A stretch of 64,000 bases of DNA from Octopus vulgaris (Eukaryota). The stretch covers positions 111,786,001-111,850,000 of the forward strand of contig OX597814.1 of assembly GCA_951406725.2 (NCBI GenBank). The letters are read 5' to 3'. Position 1 is the stretch's first letter. Each line of letters begins with the position of its first letter. The notes beneath the pieces were generated by a model, which saw only the letters and a program-made list of their open reading frames with translations, ran no database searches and was not told the origin of the DNA. This document shows, piece by piece, positions 52,027 through 64,000 of the stretch. The position numbers were made by a program, and so were the translations under genes.

Positions 52027-53204
52027 AATGGCACCGCGAGTGTCGCGTTGCTCTCAAGCAACTCTACCGCCCTGGGTCGACCTTGAGTGACTTCAACACA
52101 ACCAAAACATTCTATAGGGGATTAGTGGAGGGGAGGTACGACGACGAGCTCGGGGCGAACCTGGACGTCGACGAGGAGTACCTGACCCGCCTGTTCAGGA
52201 CGACTTTCGGGCCAGGGCCCATGGACAACTTCCAGAAATCCCTGGCCTGGCAGTGTTACCAAGAAGCGCTACCCGTTCGGGATAAGCTCTACAGACACGG
52301 CTCGAGAAACACGGGGCCGACCTGCCCGAGATGCGGTCAGAGCGACGAAACCGTTCTGCACGCACTCGTGCAGTGTCCAACAATTTCCGACCTGTGGGTT
52401 TGTGTCGAACAACTGCTGTCACGTGTGGGACGAGTCGGTTTATCAGCTGAGTCTATCGTCAATATTGTCACGCCTCCTTCCTTCAAACGAGAAGGAAGAG
52501 CTATTTTTATCATCCTTGTGGCTATGGCGAAAGAATGTATCTGGTGGACGCGTCTGAAAGGATTGGAGACAAACACTTTCCTCTCTGTTCAATCTCTCAT
52601 CAACTTCTTCAAGTACCACTTGAAAAGGAAAGTGAGAGTAGAGAGGCAAGTTTTGTCTAGCGAATGTTTTAAAAAAAGATGGGTGAATGTAGCAAGGATG
52701 GCACGTATGAATGACGAAGCCACCTTGAGCATAATCCTATGAACCCAGAAATTGAAAACAGAGGGTTACCCACTTGCAAACAAATGTGGTAACATATAAC
52801 AATATTGACCAAGGTTACCGTGGTCTTTTTCGTAGGCTTTTCTTCCCACGGTTAAACCTTACTTGCTTTCCCCTTTACACCATATATCATAACACTGTGA
52901 TACACGATCCCTATTGATCGTTCTTTTTTTTTTTTCCTCTTCCCCCTTTTTCCCCTTTTTTCTTCTTTTTTCATTTCTCTTTTTTTTTGTTCCTTTTCCT
53001 TTTCTTTTTCTTTTTTTTTATTCTTTTTATTTTTTCTTTTTCTTTTTTTTGTTCTTTTCTTCCCTTTTACGATCCCTCTTGATCGAAAACCTACGCCACC
53101 CCTTTTTTTTTCTTTTGTTTTTTGTTTTTTCATCCCCCAAAAGAAAAGCTCTACCTTGTAACTTGTCCCATCTGTGTGCAGCCCTGTGTGGCCAATAAAG
53201 AAAC

Positions 53205-54554: not shown

Positions 54555-55745
54555 AACGGAAGCATGATAAAGGAACGAACGGAAAATTCATACACAAGAC
54601 ATGGACTCTTTTCTCGTCAATTATCGTCCTAAGAATCATTGCAGTTTCATGCCTTTAACCATAATATTTTAAAGTTTTGGTGGCTTTAACAGCAAAAAGC
54701 TGTTGGGAATAATGAGCGAACGTGGAGGGGAGTGACAAAAACAAACACGACACATGTAGTGAGTACGGATATAAATATATAAGCAAAATAAAGACCGTGC
54801 AGCTGTAAGACAGTGATAGGACGTGACGAGTGTAGAAGTAATGCAATGGAAAATGATGTCCTTTGAGACTGGAAAAGGAAAGTGGAAAGATAAAGAGATA
54901 GAACAGGATGTGGAACAACGAAAAAATCAACAACAAAAACAAATTCCGGGTTGAAAGTGGAGGAGAAAGCGAGAGGCCAGGTGAAGGGTGACAAGTCAGT
55001 GGTCAAGCGAAAAGAGAATGTCGGAAGGAGAAAAGGGGATGGTCACAGGTCACATGATAGCGGGACAAGGGGGAGAAGGAGAAAAAGTTATGAAGGGCAG
55101 AGAAAAAGGCTGAGAAGGAGTAGATATATTTCTTTATTGCCCACAAGGGGCTAAACATAGAGGGGACAAACAAGGACAGACAAAGGGATTAAGTCGATTA
55201 AATCGACCCCAGTGCGAAACTGGTACTTTATTTATCGACCCCGAAAGGATGAAAGGCAAAATCGATCTCGGCGGAATTTGAACTCATAACGTAACGACAG
55301 ACGAAATACCTATTTCTTTATTACCCACAAGGGGCTAAACATAGAGGGGACAAACAAGGACAGACATAGGTATTAAGTCGATTACATCGACCCCAGTGCG
55401 TAACTGGTACTTAATTTATCGACCCCGAAAGGATGAAAGGCAAAGTCGACCTCAGCGGAATTTGAACTCACAACATAACGGCAGACGAAATACGGCTACG
55501 CATTTCGCCCGGCCTGAGAAGATGGGTAGATAGAAAGGAAGGCTGATAGACGGGATAGTTGAGAGAAAGGGAATGAGGGAGGGGTGCGCAAAAAGAGAGG
55601 AGGAAGGTGAATAATAAAGATGAATAATAAAGTGAAGCGGGTAGACAGAATAGTAAAGTGAAGCGGGTAGACAGAAAAATCAACAGAGGTGGTGAGAGAG
55701 GGAAGAGAAAGAAAAGGCAATGTAAAACGAAATTGACAGCATTTG
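54551..55745 (-). mobile_element. Non-coding retroelement (relative of 2280-2585) with a SINE A inserted
   Basis: CT-rich body on the minus strand, catgtgacc motif, decayed permuted hammerhead at 54614-54686; distal boundary uncertain. Confidence 0.55.
55127..55513 (-). mobile_element. SINE family A dimer, 5'-truncated, ending in the Tx1-like tail
   Basis: Imperfect TSD ctgagaag..gtagata (55110-55126 and 55514-55532). Confidence 0.88.
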
Positions 55746-56626
55746 GTTTTCCCAATGCGGACACCCAAACAAAACACTAACGTTTTCACACTTTGGGGCA
55801 CTATTCTTCCACTACGACCGTTACGACCCTTGATGTTATGTAAACGAAAGTCCGTCTTAGATGTGTTGTGAGGGAAGTGGAACCTCGCCAGGTTTTAAAC
55901 ATTCTATCACAAAGTATGTGATTCGTGTAAGGTCGTATAAATCCAATATTGAACTAAATTGACATTTATCTGAAGGAAGGACCCAATAATTTCACATAGC
56001 CTTTTCTTCAAGATTAGAAAGCATTAAATTCTAAATAAAACCAAGTAAAGAAAACTGTTCGTTTTTACTATGGCAATGTCAAATTTGCTTTCTCTCTCTC
56101 GCTTTTCTTTTTTAAAGTAATTCATACATTAAAAAGAAAAAAGAAATAACACATAAAACCTCAAATATAATTTAAAATAGAATAAAATAGAAGCAGATTT
56201 TCTCCTCTGCTGAGAACATGGGAAAGCGAACCGGATGTAAAAATGTCTACGAGATAAGCTGTATTAATTATGGTACGCTAATGACAAACAGCTGCACATG
56301 GAAACTGCTGATTGGCTGAACGCCGTGCAAGTTTATATAATAAGCTCAATTCAGCTTTAGACAGAAAACTCCACGTTTTATATTATTTTATACTGGTTCG
56401 GTTTAATCTTTCAGCGAATAAAGAAGTAAAAATTATAAGCGAGGCTTCATTTCAAAGAGAACGTGCTAGATGCAACCAAGTGGCTATAAAGTGTATACAG
56501 ATGAAAACATGCATGTATTTTGTAAGGATGGCCACATATATGTACATGCATGCATACATACATACATACAAACTTACAAATACAAACATACGTATATAGA
56601 TATATACACACAAACGTACATAGATA

Positions 56627-56705
<79 letters not shown>

Positions 56706-56989
56706 TACTTTATCGGTAAGTATATTGGTGCATATATACATAGATAAGTATATTGGCAAATTCATACACACACACATTCACGCACACACACTCACACACA
56801 CATTTCATGTACACTATACGTTCGTATATACAATCTTGCGTATATACAACCATCCATACATATGTACATTAGATATTGGTGAATCCATCCATTCATATAT
56901 ACGTATGCATATATGTATATATGCATATATATGTATGTATATATATATGTATGTATATATATGTATTATATACGCACATATATACACAT

Positions 56990-57026
<37 letters not shown>

Positions 57027-57153
57027 CACACACACAGGCATATTTATATATGTCTTTTCAATATATATGTATGTATAAACAACCTATAAATGTATATGCA
57101 TATATCCTTCATAGTATATATGTACTCAAGTGAGTTTATGTAAATGCTTATGC

Positions 57154-57193
<40 letters not shown>

Positions 57194-57374
57194 AAGCAAG
57201 AAGCCACATCCACCGAGGTCATTAAAACCAAGTAATTATGTAAGCAGCGTAGAGCTAAACAAGCGAATAATGAGAAACACATAAAAAAAAGATACTTGGA
57301 GAAAAACTCGTCTGTGTATGTATTAGCTGCTATTCGTACATGTACATACACACATCCATACATCCATACACACC

Positions 57375-57420
<46 letters not shown>

Positions 57421-57701
57421 CATACATGTTTATACCTACATATATGTATATATGTATATTTGTATGAATATAGATAGATATATGTGTGTATGCATATATA
57501 TGTTTTATATATATATATGTAAATACATGTATGTATGTATATGTATGTACATACATACATACAGACATACATTACGGCGATAAGATATGCGTGTGTGAGT
57601 GTGTGTATGTGTGTATATGTGCATTTATGTATACATATATATATGTGTGTAGGTGTGTGTAGGTGGGTATGTATATAAATATATATATGTATGTATAAAT
57701 G

Positions 57702-57752
<51 letters not shown>

Positions 57753-57850
57753 AAATGTATATATATATATATATAATGTTTATGAATTTGCATGTATGTG
57801 TGTGTATATATATATATATAAATATATATGTATATGCATATCTGTATGTG

Positions 57851-57906
<56 letters not shown>

Positions 57907-57950
57907 TATATATATATGTATATATGTATATATGTATATACTTATATGTA

Positions 57951-57997
<47 letters not shown>

Positions 57998-59034
57998 CGA
58001 TGATAATAAGGCATGACGAACGCCGTGTTGCGATTTGATAACATAAGCATCTTACATTTAATATTAACACATCACACTTTCTTCTTCTTCTTCCACCACC
58101 ACCTCCTCCTCCTCTCCATCCTCTCCACCCTCTCCCTCTTCTCCATCCTCTCCCCCTCATCTTATTTATAGCAAAAAGCTACGTAATGTCACACAGACAA
58201 GACTGTCTACCGCCATTCCATTTTCCATTAACAAACACCAGCGAATGTTACATCCACCGTCACTTTCTTTCTTTTATTTATCATCAGGTATTTTATTTTA
58301 TGCAGTTGAACATCGATTCAGCGATAGAATACATTTCGATCTATGATCGATATATCTATAAAATAATGTTATAATATATATCCTGAATAAGAAGCGATTT
58401 TTGCCGTTTATACTATGGCTAAAAAAGCTGTTGTCTTAGCAAATATAATATTTTCAACGTAACTCAAAATTGTATCAAATTTATCTTTGCACATTTTTTT
58501 AAGGATTGAACATCAGCCATCTTAGGGTCCCACTTTGAAGGACTTAGTCAAGCAAATCAGCCCCAGTACTTATTTCTTTTTGACTGTGGTGCTTGTTCTA
58601 TCGTTCTTCTTTTGCCGAATTGCTAAGTTACAGGAATATAAACCAACTCTGGTTATCAAGTAGTGATGGGTAACAACAACCAATCACACTACATCCATAC
58701 ATACACACATACACACATTACATGTCCAGATATGCAACTATATGCATGAGAATACACACATAAAACATACAAATCTGCACATACATACATACATACATAC
58801 ATACATACATACATCATGTCTAGATATGCAACTATATGCAAGAGGATGCATATATAAAACAAAACATACAAATCTGCACATATACATACAAAAATAACCT
58901 TTTGATGTTTTTGAAATACCAATGAAGGAGTCCTGGATCTAGTTAGAAACCGGTTCCTTCTCTATTGGCAAGAAATCTTGAAATAAAACTGAATAATGAC
59001 ACATACACACACACACACACTCACACACACACAC

Positions 59035-59070
<36 letters not shown>

Positions 59071-59369
59071 TCACACACTCTCTCACACACACACTCTCAC
59101 ACACACATGAATAGAACAGATAAACACCCATATATACCCATGTGCTAAGAGGTAAACTAACAGGCCGTTCCTTAGAACGGTTCATGGCAGTTCAAAACAT
59201 TAATTCTGTTACAGAATGTAGTAACTCAATGCATATTTACAGAATAACCAAGGAAGTATAAAACAGTTGAAAAGAACAGATAACATGGTACTGTAGGCTG
59301 CAGGTAGCAAGCCCGCTGTGCATACAAGACTCCAAGAATTTCAACAAAACCTCAGTTAATAATAACAAC

Positions 59370-59690
59370 GATAAGCCGGAGATGACTTTTAAGATGGGAA
59401 TATCTGAAATTAACTCGACTGCTCTCACAAACGTGAATACTAAAAATGAACTCGACTACTCTCAAAAATTAAATAAAAAAACTGGAAAAATAATCCAGAA
59501 TCCTTGTCCGGTACCGGATCGATCCCAAAATCTAGTAAGTTCGTGCCAGTCACAAGGCCAAACATCCCTGAAAGTTTCATTTGAATCCATCCAGCGGTTC
59601 TTGAGATATCTTGTCCACGGACAAACAAACAAACAAGCAAACACGACTGAAAACAATACCTCCGCCTTTGTTAAGACGGAGGCAATAATT
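59370..59690 (-). mobile_element. DINE-1/HINE-like element, second copy
   Basis: Reverse complement of most of 18661-18960. Confidence 0.75.
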
Positions 59691-59810
59691 ATAAAAGTAA
59701 ATGATAAAATAGGTTTATCAAAGAAATTAGCTTCAAAGGAAGATATGTGTGCTCTGACAGAATCATTTTCTAAAGAGAAATAGGTTGACCATTCCAGTAT
59801 TAATTTAGAT

Positions 59811-60151
59811 CAGGAATTCTCAACTATTTTTTTTTATCTTTGATTACTATCCTATTCTGGGGGACCTCCATAGCCATTCGATGTTTAAAAACTAGTTTTA
59901 TAGCAATTTATTTCAAAATTTCTATTTTTTCTTTTTTTTTTCACTCATTAACTTGTATAGGTTGAACTATGTAAAATGTTAGAGAAAGAAACCCGGCTGT
60001 TTCTAGCAATACATACATCTAAAGCAAAATTTTTTCAGGGGCTCCTTAAAATACTGTTGTGGATCCCCAATTAACTATTTTGTTGTGTTGATCCCCCAAA
60101 AACTTATATGGACCATGAGGGGTCCATATGAACCCCAGTAGAGAACCACTG
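59811..60151 (+). mobile_element. hAT/Charlie-like MITE
   Basis: Ends caggaattctcaact and agtagagaaccactg; 8-bp TSD atttagat/atttcgat. Confidence 0.75.
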
Positions 60152-60258
60152 ATTTCGATGAGTAAAAGAATAAATGAATTCTATGACCAGTTGGGAGAGA
60201 CCTAAAGGGAGAACAAAATAAGGTTTAGAAACAGAAATGATGGCTTCCCTATTACTGC

Positions 60259-60313
<55 letters not shown>

Positions 60314-60439
60314 TGCTTTCAAATTTTGTGTCACTTGTCTGTTTTCCATTTTTTTCTCTCGTTGTTTGCGTACTCACTTCATGTGTTTCGTACTTAATGT
60401 TATTTACAGTTGGTGACGTCCTGTACCCATTTATGCATA

Positions 60440-60480
<41 letters not shown>

Positions 60481-60639
60481 TTAAGGGTTTAGCAACAAGT
60501 TGCTTCACCACATACCGAAAATTTAGAAATAGCACCCAAAGACAGCTAATTCCTTTTAACTACAAATATGACTCCACAGGCAACAATATTTGTAACTCAC
60601 ATAGGCAAAAAGAAGGAAAACTAACAAAATCAAACAGTC

Positions 60640-60775
<136 letters not shown>

Positions 60776-61000
60776 GGTGGAAATTTGGAGAAAAAAAAGA
60801 CGAAGACGGGTGTGTGAATAACAAGCAGGTATATTAGTTTGACGCTCGGGAAAAATGAAAAAGGTATTTTTTGTTTCGAGCCTACGCTCTTTAACAAAAA
60901 AGGAATAAGAGAAAATAAACAGGCAGAGAATGAAAAACACTTGTAAATTTCAGCGGTCCGACATTGTGAATGTATGTATGTATGTATGTATGTATGTATG

Positions 61001-61031
<31 letters not shown>

Positions 61032-61302
61032 TATGCGTGTGTGTATGTGTATGTACATGTGTGTGTCTGTGTATGTATCTGTATTGTTTATTCTTTCACA
61101 CACACACACATGTACATACACATACACACACGCATATTACGCTCACACTTATACACACATCACACACATAAAGGTGGAGGAGCTTGCTTCCCAGTCACAT
61201 GGTTCTGGGTTCAGTCCCACTACGTAGCACCTTGGGCCTATACTCGGCCCGACTAAAGCCTTGTGAGTGGATTTGGTAGACGGAAACTGAAAGAAGCCTG
61301 TC

Positions 61303-61343
<41 letters not shown>

Positions 61344-61581
61344 TATACATATACATATATATATATATATACATATATATATATGTATATACACAGATAT
61401 ACATATACATACATACACACACGCACACACCGTTATTGTTTTTACGTTTTTGTATTCTTATTGTTGTCACGTATTCTGTATTTTTGTTCGTGTACTTCGT
61501 TCGTTTTCCGTCCTCGTGTTGTATACATTCGAAGCTTTCTTCCAGGGGATCTAATGCACTTGGCTTAGATTTCCCGTGGCG

Positions 61582-61654
61582 GGCTGGCCATATCGGAGCA
61601 ATCTCAAGATTAATCAGCCGAAATTGCTAAGATGATCTGGTTCTTGACTGATGA
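61582..61654 (+). ncRNA. Hammerhead ribozyme motif with non-canonical (pseudoknotted) strand order, copy 1
   Basis: GGCUG...AGCAA-U-C-UCAAGA..CAGCC-GAAA-UUGCU...UCUUGA-CUGAUGA: stems I (6 bp), II (5 bp) and III (6 bp) all in hammerhead register. Confidence 0.7.
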
Positions 61655-62374
61655 CTGAGGACTTCGAATGTCCCGTCCTGTGGTTCTTGTGTCGTCTCTG
61701 TGGCGTTTCATGTTCTTGTCCATGTCTGTAATTATTTTTACTGTTTACCTATATAATCGGCGGCTACGTATCCACAATTGTCCTTATACGATAAGTATAT
61801 TTTTTTCTCAAGCATTGATACGACTCTTAATCTTTCTTTCCTTCCTTTCTTTTCTCTCTCTCTCCTCCCTTATTCCCCCTCCTTTCTTTCCCTCTCCATC
61901 CGTTTCCCCCCCTTCTACGTTTCTCTATCTCTCTCACCTCCAGCCCCCTCGATCTGTCTCTTTCTTCTCCTCCCTCGTCCACCTTCTCTCTCTTTTCATC
62001 TGTCCCTTTCTCTTGTCTTTTGTTCTCACGTGACCGCTAGCCGCTGTTGAACGCTCTTTTCGTTCCAGCAGCCGTTGAAGCAACACGTACTTGTTCGTCT
62101 CCCTGTGGCCATTAGGCACAACTTCATAAGCTAGCCCCATGCTCAATTCGTCCTGTCGAAAGACCCTTGTCCTACGTCCTGGTTTTGTTTTGTTGTTTAT
62201 TATTTTTTATACTTTATTTTTACCGTTATTGTTTTTACGTTTTTGTATTCTTATTGTTGTCACGTATTCTGTATTTTTGTTCGTGTACTTCGTTCGTTTT
62301 CCGTCCTCGTGTTGTATACATTCGAAGCTTTCTTCCAGGGGATCTAATGCACTTGGCTTAGATTTCCCGTGGCG

Positions 62375-62447
62375 GGCTGGCCATATCGGAGCAATCTCAA
62401 GATTAATCAGCCGAAATTGCTAAGATGATCTGGTTCTTGACTGATGA
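62375..62447 (+). ncRNA. Hammerhead ribozyme motif with non-canonical strand order, copy 2
   Basis: Same sequence as 61582-61654. Confidence 0.7.
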
Positions 62448-62540
62448 CTGAGGGCTTCGAATGTCCCGTCCTGTGGTTCTTGTGTCGTCTCTGTGGCGTT
62501 TCATGTTCTTGTCCATGTCTGTAATTATTTTTACTGTTTA

Positions 62541-62584
<44 letters not shown>

Positions 62585-63379
62585 TATATATATATAAATA
62601 TATATATACACGCATATGTTTGTGTGTCTGTGTTTCCCCCACCATCGCTTGACAACCGATGTTGGTGTGTTTACGTCTCCGTAACTTAGCGGTTCGGCAA
62701 AAGAAACCGATAGAATAAAAACTAGGCTTGCAAAGAATAAGTTTTGGGTTCTATTTGTTCGACCAAAAGCGGTGCTCCAGCATGGCCGCAGTCAAATCAC
62801 TGAAACAAAAGAATAAAAAAGTACATGCGCAGACAAAACAAACGCACACAGAAAGACATACACACACACATATGTAAACACACGCGTTTACACACACCGC
62901 ACACAAACGCATATACTCAAACATACAAACACCCGCGCACACATACATACGTAATGCATGTCCATTGTCCATGTTCCATCTCATTCTGCCCTGTCCAACT
63001 CCCCTTCCTCCTACCGCCATTGCGTCTCTCCTAAAACAACACACCTCCCACTGCTCACCTTCTTTGTTTCTCTCTCTCAAACAATATATCTTTCAATCTC
63101 TTTTTTCTTTCTCTCTCTCTCTTCTCTAGACACATCCCCACCACCATTATTGTCTCATCTGTTTGCAATCACAACAAAACTTTCACTTTCTTATTAACCT
63201 ACTGTTTGCTATTCTGTCATCTAGTCTCTCTCTCCCCTCTCTCTCTCCTTCTTTTTCTCTCCTCTCCTCTCCTCTCTGTTTCTTCTCTACTCTTTGTCTC
63301 TCTCCTCCACTCTCCCTATTTCATCTCTTTTCACCTCTCGCTTCACCGCTTGAAGAATCAACATTATTGTACTTCGAAA

Positions 63380-63492
63380 GATCCTTTAGGGGTCGTTAAA
63401 TTAAGTACCAGTTGAGTACTGAGGTCAGTCTGATCGACTGGCCCACTCCCCCTCCAAATTTCAGGCCTTGTGCCTATATAAGAAAGGATTAT
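63380..63492 (+). mobile_element. SINE family A 3' fragment
   Basis: ggggtcg..aaattaagtaccag...aggccttgtgccta..agaaaggattatt. Confidence 0.7.
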
Positions 63493-64000
63493 TGTTTTTC
63501 GGAAGATAATGAAAAGTCTAAGTTTTACTAAAGAAACCCAATAAGACCATAACATGTCCGGAGTTGCCTCCCCTATGCTTATCGTAGAAAATGGCTCAAC
63601 TCAAGCTAACTCAAATAATTTAATTTAGCTGCCTTCTTGATTGGCAACATCTAATCTGCGGAGATCAAGAAAAACTGATTCCAGTCACGGATCTGCATCT
63701 TGTAAATACATTCGTTTTACTCATACTTCGAAGACACTGACAGACTGTCTGACGGAGGCGAGCAACCTGAAATTTTGAAGTCACTGTTAAACTTTTTTTT
63801 TCTGTAGTTTCATCTCAGAGCTGCGGCCATGCTGATGCACCGCCGTTGAATTTTAAAACATGTACTCTACTAAATTGTAAGGCTATATTATTTTTTAATA
63901 TTCTATATAACATGACATAAAACCCAACATTAATATATACGTTGGGGAGCTGAAAAGATCCTGGTTTAAGGGTATCGTGAAAGGCCTGATTGGAGGTCCA

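What the first reader, a model, noticed from the sequence alone, without database searches (positions are those of the whole stretch)
61582..61654. Complete hammerhead-ribozyme core wired in a non-canonical, pseudoknotted strand order
Seen: every conserved hammerhead nucleotide is present and in exact register with perfect helices. Cleavage strand AGCAA-U-C-UCAAGA (61597-61609, AUC triplet, predicted cut after 61603). CAGCC-GAAA-UUGCU (61615-61628) forms a 6-bp stem III with 61597-61602. UCUUGA-CUGAUGA (61642-61654) forms a 6-bp stem I with 61604-61609. GGCUG (61582-61586) pairs with CAGCC as stem II, with the usual G-C closing pair next to GAAA. Established: type I/II/III hammerheads are circular permutations of the order substrate, CUGANGA, GAAA. 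Here the order is stem-II strand, substrate, GAAA, CUGAUGA, which is not such a permutation, and A9 is not linked to the stem II 5' strand. Inference: stems I and II lie side by side in the hammerhead fold, so the 5-nt I-to-II and 13-nt III-to-I linkers are plausible for a compact pseudoknotted ribozyme that standard motif searches would miss. An alternative stem II is CUGA after the core pairing with UCAG. I do not know of this topology being described but cannot check the literature.
Basis: partly seen in the sequence, partly recalled or inferred. Interest (0 to 1): 0.9.

Follow-up and report, generated by a model that had tools for sequence, protein, structure and literature searches.

The report
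Rewired hammerhead ribozyme of Naiad retrotransposons
This stretch holds a complete hammerhead self-cutting RNA motif wired in a scrambled strand order, repeated over ten thousand times in this animal genome and also sitting at the tail of many Naiad jumping genes that were reported to lack such a motif; it likely cuts the element's RNA, though cutting has not been tested in a tube.

Summary
It is one unit of a non-coding, (TA)n-inserted tandem retroelement; a core pattern hits 13,418 sites against 284 for the reversed control. All stems covary across 35 copies.

The strand order (cleavage strand, GAAA, CUGAUGA) is the 'type SGC' order of Eckert et al. 2023, so that part is known. What I did not find in print is that the A9–G10.1 link is opened. 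A9 leads into a 15-bp stem IV, then hairpin V, then stem II.

The same architecture, or its CSG rotation, follows the ORF in 11 of 80 Naiad-like Penelope loci found by protein, and by eye in at least 16 of 54 published Naiad consensus sequences, a clade described as lacking canonical hammerheads.

5' ends of genomic copies pile up about 14-fold just 3' of the predicted cut, indirect evidence of cleavage in vivo. Verdict: new variant of the hammerhead, likely active.

The parts
61429..62548 (+). Whole insertion: 1.41 units of a non-coding tandem retroelement (subfamily A of 'family 1'), 5'-truncated, between microsatellites, ending in (TA)n
   Evidence: fixed 3' end in the 12 subfamily-A loci printed, variable 5' ends
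61429..61755 (+). First direct repeat (partial unit, pLTR-like), carries ribozyme copy 1
62222..62548 (+). Second direct repeat, carries ribozyme copy 2 (62318-62464); has the majority G at the position of 61661
61604..62396 (+). Predicted cut-to-cut monomer RNA, 793 nt (744-793 nt in 10 subfamily-A loci, 843-861 nt in subfamily B)
   Evidence: cleavage inferred
61525..61539 (+). Stem IV 5' strand (pairs 61657-61671, 15 bp; one C-A mismatch in copy 1, C-G in copy 2)
61542..61579 (+). Hairpin V, ends 2 nt before G10.1
61582..61586 (+). Stem II 5' strand, G10.1 = 61582, displaced from A9 to the 5' end of the core
61587..61595 (+). Stem I-II bridging helix, 5' strand (pairs 61633-61641, 8 of 9 positions)
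   Evidence: 89.6% of cells paired, 4 of 8 pairs with two-sided change
61597..61609 (+). Block S: stem III strand 61597-602, C17 = 61603 (AUC triplet, predicted cut 61603|61604), stem I strand 61604-609
61615..61628 (+). Block G: stem II 3' strand 61615-19, G12-A13-A14-A15.1 61620-23, stem III strand 61623-28
61633..61641 (+). Stem I-II bridging helix, 3' strand
61642..61654 (+). Half of block C: stem I strand 61642-47 and C3-A9 core 61648-54; N7 varies among subfamilies
61657..61671 (+). Stem IV 3' strand, starts 2 nt after A9
61750..61755 (+). Internal TATATA at which insertions end and merge with the (TA)n target (62543-48 in copy 2); likely priming site of reverse transcription, about 150 nt 3' of the cut
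   Evidence: role inferred

Best explanation
This is a hammerhead motif in the reverse (SGC/CSG-class) strand order with the A9-G10.1 link opened by two extra helices, carried by a non-coding tandem retroelement likely derived from a Naiad Penelope-like element, and it likely cuts the element's RNA after C61603. Shown: the core nucleotides, five covarying or conserved helices around them, the copy number, and the same architecture behind Naiad ORFs. Inferred fold: stem II stays stacked on the A9-G12 pair through the unbroken C11.1-G12 strand, while stem IV and hairpin V stack on each other, making a four-way junction at A9/G10.1; a 8-9 bp helix ties the far ends of stems I and II and does the job of the usual loop-loop contact. 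Inferred chemistry, from established hammerhead work: G12 base, G8 2'-OH acid, 2',3'-cyclic phosphate and 5'-OH products. Inferred life cycle: transcripts of tandem copies are cut into about 790-nt monomers. A Penelope-type RT/endonuclease, supplied in trans, nicks (TA)n and primes at an internal UAUAUA about 150 nt 3' of the cut. A linear cut RNA gives short inserts that stop at the cut; a circularised monomer gives tandem inserts such as this one.
For: Covariation on a sequence-only alignment of 35 copies: 91.8% of 873 cells paired, 14 of 25 pairs with two-sided changes, 0 of 500 shuffles as high, slid controls 17-44%. Two further families in the genome keep the topology with unrelated stem sequences. 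Unbiased set found by protein: 11 of 80 Naiad-like loci have a hammerhead 3' of the ORF, all in reverse order (7 split, 4 CSG, 0 type I/II/III); controls gave 0 in 192,717 nt of ORF region, 1 antisense, 1 in 30 shuffles. These loci cluster on the RT tree with this genome's Naiad remnants. The stem IV/hairpin V junction reaches p<=0.05 in 12 of 18 representatives and is present in 39 of 41 family-1 copies. 5' ends: 29 of 93 copies begin in the 12 nt at or 3' of the cut (7 exactly at it) against 14 in the next 84 nt upstream, p about 1e-16. Units within a tandem array differ by 1 substitution in 8 comparisons, against a mean of 3.15 in 97 between-array comparisons.
Against: No cleavage assay and no raw RNA reads. 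An intact block C is assumed necessary in Eckert 2023, and no tested hammerhead with a junction at A9/G10.1 turned up in my searches. Within family 1 the two-sided changes in stem II come from one copy (L070); the wider support comes from other families whose stems were read with a descriptor that demands pairing. 69 of 80 Naiad-like loci show no motif, including loci with long 3' flanks inside the ribozyme-bearing clade (L291, L337). No DNA homology was found between the window's monomer and Naiad or Neptune loci of this genome, so Naiad descent rests on topology, position and target site. Only Neptune-like PLEs were found intact. The junction test was partly post hoc and failed in 6 of 18. 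One of 41 aligned copies has G at position 17. For another PLE, ribozyme cleavage was not needed for insertion in vitro and no reads ended at the cut (Frangieh 2024).
Confidence: 0.8

Rival explanations
1. The core is catalytic but works as a strand-swapped dimer, or between neighbouring repeat units, because the bridging helix cannot span from the tips of stems I and II to the tip of stem III in one molecule.
For: Linkers between the bridging helix and stem III are only 1 and 4 nt in the window and short in most families. Eckert et al. flagged the same geometric puzzle for SGC ribozymes. Many PLE hammerheads act as dimers (Cervera 2014).
Against: All stems are long enough to form in one chain; there is no short palindromic stem III. 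Core length is kept at 68-79 nt in 16 of 18 representatives with unrelated sequence. Tandem partners are about 790 nt apart.
Confidence: 0.1
2. The fold is kept as a protein-recognition or RT-stop signal and no longer cleaves; the pile-up of 5' ends is RT falling off inside a stable structure.
For: Ends are spread over 12 nt, not only at the cut. Ends 3' of G12 could not be seen because the search pattern needed GAAA and CUGANGA. Cleavage was dispensable for another PLE in vitro.
Against: The step in end density falls at the predicted scissile bond (3.0 per nt just 3' of it, 0.5 then 0.12 just 5'), after RT has already unwound the 3' strand of every core helix. All 11 protein-found motifs keep an NUH triplet and the full core while stems change.
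Confidence: 0.07
3. An ordinary contiguous type-SGC hammerhead whose stem II is CUGA (after A9) paired with UCAG, leaving two unpaired C before G12.
For: The four pairs can form in the window copy.
Against: 72.9% of cells paired, no better than shuffles (198 of 500), 1 two-sided change. Those same bases belong to stem IV. Contiguous stem II is 3 bp or less in 17 of 18 representatives; the exception is stem IV of L334.
Confidence: 0.02
4. On origin only: the element is not a Naiad derivative but a Neptune-mobilised repeat that captured or independently evolved this ribozyme.
For: No homology to Naiad 3' UTRs outside the motif. The intact PLEs found are Neptune-like and also end in (TA)n. Subfamily A is young (99% identical) while the Naiad ORFs found are decayed.
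Against: The split form was seen elsewhere only behind Naiad ORFs, at the same position near the 3' end. One cnidarian Naiad record shares the bridging-strand word GCCAUAUC and a similar stem I-to-II linker with the window (by eye).
Confidence: 0.3

Closest known systems
Type-SGC hammerheads (HRIMA-1 and variants; Eckert et al. 2023, PMC10085705)
   Same: Order S, G, C; short linker from stem I to stem II; a helix joining the other sides of stems I and II; full canonical core.
   Different: In SGC, A9 runs into stem II (0-1 nt) and the bridging strand follows at the 3' end. Here stem II and the bridging strand are moved to the 5' end and A9 leads into stem IV. [quoted passage not shown]
Type-CSG hammerheads (same paper; two sequences from metagenomes, both cleave)
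   Same: Same cyclic order and same bridging helix; the split form is a rotation of CSG opened inside block C. CSG itself follows the ORF in 4 Naiad-like loci and in 6 nematode Naiad records (by eye).
   Different: CSG keeps block C whole and has its ends between stem III and the bridging helix; no stem IV or V.
Naiad Penelope-like elements (Craig et al. 2021, PMC8557442)
   Same: (TA)n targets, 5' truncation, partial tandem repeats, and the same ribozyme near the 3' end in a subset of families.
   Different: The window's element has no ORF and no detected homology to a Naiad beyond the motif. The paper reports no canonical hammerhead in Naiads and only notes 'HHR_core' or 'HHR_half_core' words.
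Non-LTR retrozymes of animals (Cervera and de la Pena 2020, PMC7229834; Li et al. 2026, 10.64898/2026.07.22.740005)
   Same: Non-coding tandem repeats with one hammerhead per unit, likely spread by PLE proteins through cut and circularised monomers.
   Different: Those carry type I hammerheads in about 170-400 nt units; here the unit is 744-861 nt and the ribozyme is in reverse order. Circles are not shown here.
PK hammerhead (Zhan et al. 2024, PMC11300833) and hammerheads with one extra base after A9 (Cervera 2014, PMC4209133)
   Same: Show that the region at and beyond G10.1-C11.1 can be rewired or carry a bulge while the core stays the same.
   Different: In both, A9 is still joined to G10.1 directly or through one base, and the strand order is canonical.

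Membership tests
Hammerhead ribozyme | Core C3 U4 G5 A6 N7 G8 A9, G12 A13 A14, A15.1-U16.1, H17 | tested here: met
   all 11 protein-found loci
Hammerhead ribozyme | Stems I, II, III in register with the core and supported by covariation; G10.1-C11.1 closing pair | tested here: met
   (97.1%, 95.4%, 86.2% of cells paired; 33 of 35 G-C at 10.1-11.1)
Hammerhead ribozyme | Tertiary link between stems I and II | tested here: met
   bridging helix, 4 of 8 pairs with two-sided changes; 3D contact itself inferred
Hammerhead ribozyme | Self-cleavage 3' of H17 | not testable with these tools
   only indirect: 5'-end pile-up
Hammerhead types I, II, III | Circular permutation of the order C, G, S | tested here: not met
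   order is stem II strand, S, G, C; no Rfam match
Type-SGC hammerhead (Eckert 2023) | Block order S, G, C with a short stem I-to-stem II linker and an interaction helix | tested here: met
Type-SGC hammerhead (Eckert 2023) | Block C uninterrupted: CUGAUGA(U)G followed directly by stem II | tested here: not met
   descriptor text
Non-LTR retrozyme | Non-coding tandem units, each with a hammerhead | tested here: met
   no ordinary ORF of 150 codons in the element
Non-LTR retrozyme | Type I hammerhead, unit about 170-400 nt | tested here: not met
   reverse-order motif, 744-861 nt units (definition)
Non-LTR retrozyme | Expressed as linear and circular monomers | not testable with these tools
   only assembled contigs were served
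Naiad PLE | ORF with N-terminal GIY-YIG, CxC, DKA and C-terminal RT | tested here: not met
   no ORF in the window's element; met for the relatives of family 3
Naiad PLE | (TA)n insertion bias, 5' truncation, partial tandem repeats | tested here: met
   not unique to Naiads
Naiad PLE | Sequence homology to a Naiad terminal repeat | tested here: inconclusive
   no blastn hit of subfamily A or B monomers to 62 own-genome PLE loci; same ribozyme architecture; published Naiads compared by eye only

The most novel reading that the evidence does not exclude
[quoted passage not shown] The reverse-order hammerheads (split form and CSG) are then a widespread, ancient genomic class, not a rarity of metatranscriptomes, and this genome hosts over ten thousand copies in a new kind of long circular-RNA retrozyme whose insertion ends record cleavage in vivo.
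Probability: 0.7. Interest if true: 0.9.

Novelty: new variant of a known kind. Interest (0 to 1): 0.82.

Why it matters
It breaks the rule that a hammerhead is three unbreakable blocks in six possible orders (Eckert 2023): block C can be opened and can carry a branch. That gives ribozyme searches a new descriptor and gives RNA engineering a natural insertion point next to the core. It offers a testable answer to why Naiads, among the most abundant Penelope-like elements in invertebrates, seemed to lack the ribozyme other Penelope clades have. It moves non-circular RNA permutations from metatranscriptome contigs into animal genomes, at high copy number. The pile-up of insertion ends at the predicted cut bears on an open question, whether PLE hammerheads cut in vivo and what template PLE reverse transcriptases use.

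Tried and rejected
Rfam: no hammerhead among the 150 listed of 187 weak matches in 56000-64000, nearly all microsatellite hairpins; none at gathering score. Folding 61560-61700 without pseudoknots was uninformative (z 0.75); the full 158-nt unit gives z -2.51 and recovers stem IV.

A conventional type I reading from CUGAUGA onward fails by inspection: no GAAA, no stem I partner. A stem IV paired to the bases just upstream of G10.1 was my first guess; it was not general and was replaced by the IV/V junction.

Search for the autonomous partner: the GIY-YIG search found intact Neptune-like PLEs of 781 and 753 aa without this motif or homology to it; a DKA-motif pattern gave 32 hits and no ORF in the 30 loci read; the Naiad RT query gave decayed copies only among 150 listed matches. 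No Naiad relative in viral contigs.

Sequencing runs: no RNA holder on record; 14 holders are guessed RNA, all as contigs. Laying 4 runs showed summed depth rising near the cut more steeply in three guessed-RNA runs than in the DNA-like run, but contig depth cannot rank parts and no listed contig bridged the cut with 31 letters on both sides, so this is not used.

The first 5'-end scripts were confounded by TA runs and were redone. The careful tree did not finish; the quick tree is cited. Earlier scan findings: nothing by sequence or by the specific words; eight loosely related notes did not bear on this.

Full report
Observation. The motif occurs twice, 793 nt apart, inside a 327-nt direct repeat with one difference. 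A descriptor for this order found 0 hits at matching stem lengths in 60 shuffles of the window. Rfam has no match.

The carrier. The window is part of a 2.8-Gb animal assembly. A DNA search gave 2,029 candidates, of which the 40 scored were 99-100% identical. Copies share a fixed 3' end that merges into (TA)n, have variable 5' ends, and often form arrays of 2-4 units. A core pattern hits 13,418 places against 284 for the reversed control. A second pattern exposed family 2, with unrelated stems and the same topology (6,402 hits against 1,914). No ordinary ORF of 150 codons lies in the element.

The fold. On a MAFFT alignment of 35 family-1 copies (37 found; one near-duplicate and one truncated copy left out; 20 of the fetched regions were chosen for being variant), stems I, II, III and a fourth helix (61587-95 with 61633-41) pair in 91.8% of cells, with two-sided changes at 14 of 25 pairs and 0 of 500 shuffles as high. 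The tool warns that relatedness alone can beat this shuffle, and stem II's two-sided changes come from one copy. The stronger support is that families 2 and 3 and six metagenome motifs have entirely different stem II sequences that still pair with a strand 5' of the cleavage strand. The alternative stem II fails. Outside the flagged span, A9 is followed after 2 nt by a 15-bp stem IV (61525-39 with 61657-71), and a hairpin V (61542-79) ends 2 nt before G10.1. These pair in 85% of cells in 41 copies, only slightly above the shuffle mean of 83%, with 17 two-sided cells against 8. A junction score reached p<=0.05 in 12 of 18 representatives, including 5 of 6 metagenome motifs with gaps of 0-1 nt; I formed this idea after seeing some of them. 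Read together, A9/G10.1 is opened into a four-way junction. That geometry is my inference.

What is known. Eckert et al. 2023 (parts 1-6 of 8 read, plus supplement parts 1 and 8) define blocks S, G and C, assume they cannot be interrupted, and show that types SGC and CSG cleave. SGC has the same short I-to-II linker and the same interaction helix. Their descriptors require stem II right after CUGAUGA(U)G, so they would miss this form. [quoted passage not shown] Zhan et al. 2024 (parts 1-2 read) give the core chemistry and a differently rewired hammerhead with A9 still joined to G10.1. Perreault 2011, Cervera 2014, Cervera 2020, Frangieh 2024, Forgia 2023 and PMC13725137 were read as passages; Li 2026 as part 1 and passages; DasGupta 2021 as abstract and outline. 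PMC13725137 mentions hammerheads with 'additional helices' and cites three papers; I checked two of them and did not trace the third. Ten searches of the open library showed no paper describing a split at A9/G10.1 or a Naiad ribozyme. Subscription papers and bioRxiv supplements were not visible.

The Naiad link. Craig et al. 2021 (passages and supplement) report that Naiads lack canonical hammerheads and flag unexplained core words. Reading the consensus 3' ends by eye, I count the split form in 10 records (a ctenophore with only 2 bp of stem I, a hydrozoan, three Acropora, two octopus, and three records assigned by file order to a box jelly, an acanthocephalan and a clam shrimp) and intact CSG in 6 nematode records. 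That is 16 of 54, a lower bound, since line breaks hide words and CUGACGA hits were seen only to part 19. The octopus Naiad 3' end is family 3 in this genome (378 hits, control 0); the descriptor was met in 6 of 20 loci, and two loci join it to a decayed RT (L237, L258) whose closest full-length proteins have an N-terminal GIY-YIG. For an unbiased test I fetched 80 metagenome loci by a Naiad protein alignment. Eleven carry a hammerhead 3' of the ORF: 7 split (L334 was first scored SGC; inspection shows the split form) and 4 CSG, none of types I-III. Controls were 0 in ORF regions, 1 antisense, 1 in 30 shuffles. The other 69 have none; 14 of the 80 have under 300 nt of 3' flank. On a quick RT tree, 7 of 9 split rows, all 4 CSG rows and this genome's Naiad remnants fall in one clade of 20 (SH-aLRT 99), so the motif marks a subset of Naiads.

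Evidence for cutting. Among 93 distinct contexts from the first 100 pattern hits on contig C1, 29 begin within the 12 nt at or 3' of the predicted cut, 7 exactly at it, 14 in the next 84 nt upstream, and 50 run further (five junctions were assigned to the cut because the three bases before it belong to a TA run). One search shows the same junctions directly. The simplest reading is reverse transcription of RNA already cut at C17. The limit is that ends 3' of G12 were invisible to the pattern. Units within an array are near-identical while arrays differ (on loci chosen for an identical ribozyme), as expected from copying around one circular monomer, though local duplication would look alike. 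Frangieh 2024 shows internal initiation for a PLE RT, which fits a fixed end 150 nt into the monomer, but also that cleavage was dispensable in vitro. Public runs gave contigs only and settled nothing.

Open points. The mobilising protein is unknown: the intact PLEs found are Neptune-like, without homology to the element. Descent of families 1 and 2 from a Naiad is inferred. Monomer versus dimer is unresolved.

Verdict. Real, conserved and most likely catalytic. It works like a hammerhead and belongs to the reverse-order class, but it is not a type SGC member by that paper's definition. New variant of a known kind; interest 0.82.

Noticed in passing
L273, L274, L275, L306 (3' of the ORF); nematode Naiad records in the PMC8557442 supplement: Intact type-CSG hammerheads with the interaction helix. 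The type was described from two metagenome sequences; these suggest it is the ribozyme of one Naiad subclade (one branch, SH-aLRT 99).
   Followed up: partly
L121, L125, L129, L134, L135, L139 (G000 family 2): A second abundant repeat family with the split hammerhead, GUA or GUC triplets and a gap-free IV/V junction in L135; unit structure and partner not worked out.
   Followed up: partly
L191 2745-5090 and L263 (G000): Two intact, multi-copy Neptune-like PLE families (781 and 753 aa, RT then GIY-YIG), ending in (TA)n. Their 3' ends hold type-I-like hammerhead words with U3 and A8 in place of C3 and G8, read by eye. Candidates for the trans-acting protein.
   Followed up: partly
L096, L104, L386, L102: Family-1 copies whose 5' part is replaced by an inverted piece of the same element, switching near the cut site, like the inverted 5' structures of PLE insertions.
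   Followed up: no
L028 45-990: A subfamily-A array inserted at the (TA)n tail of a subfamily-B copy, so the elements target each other's tails.
   Followed up: no
L136, L362, L420: Older family-1 copies with G at position 17, which a hammerhead should not cut; a possible inactive lineage or separate mutations.
   Followed up: no
PMC8557442 supplement, near part 17: One arthropod Naiad record (spider by file order) seems to hold S, G, C with 8-bp stems I and III, long linkers and an unclear stem II (by eye).
   Followed up: no
window 55127-55493: Two tandem copies of a 184-nt repeat, 93% alike; looks like an ordinary interspersed repeat.
   Followed up: no
window about 52029-52740 (+): A 237-codon open frame resembling the C-terminal zinc-binding region of a LINE ORF2, judged by eye.
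   Followed up: no
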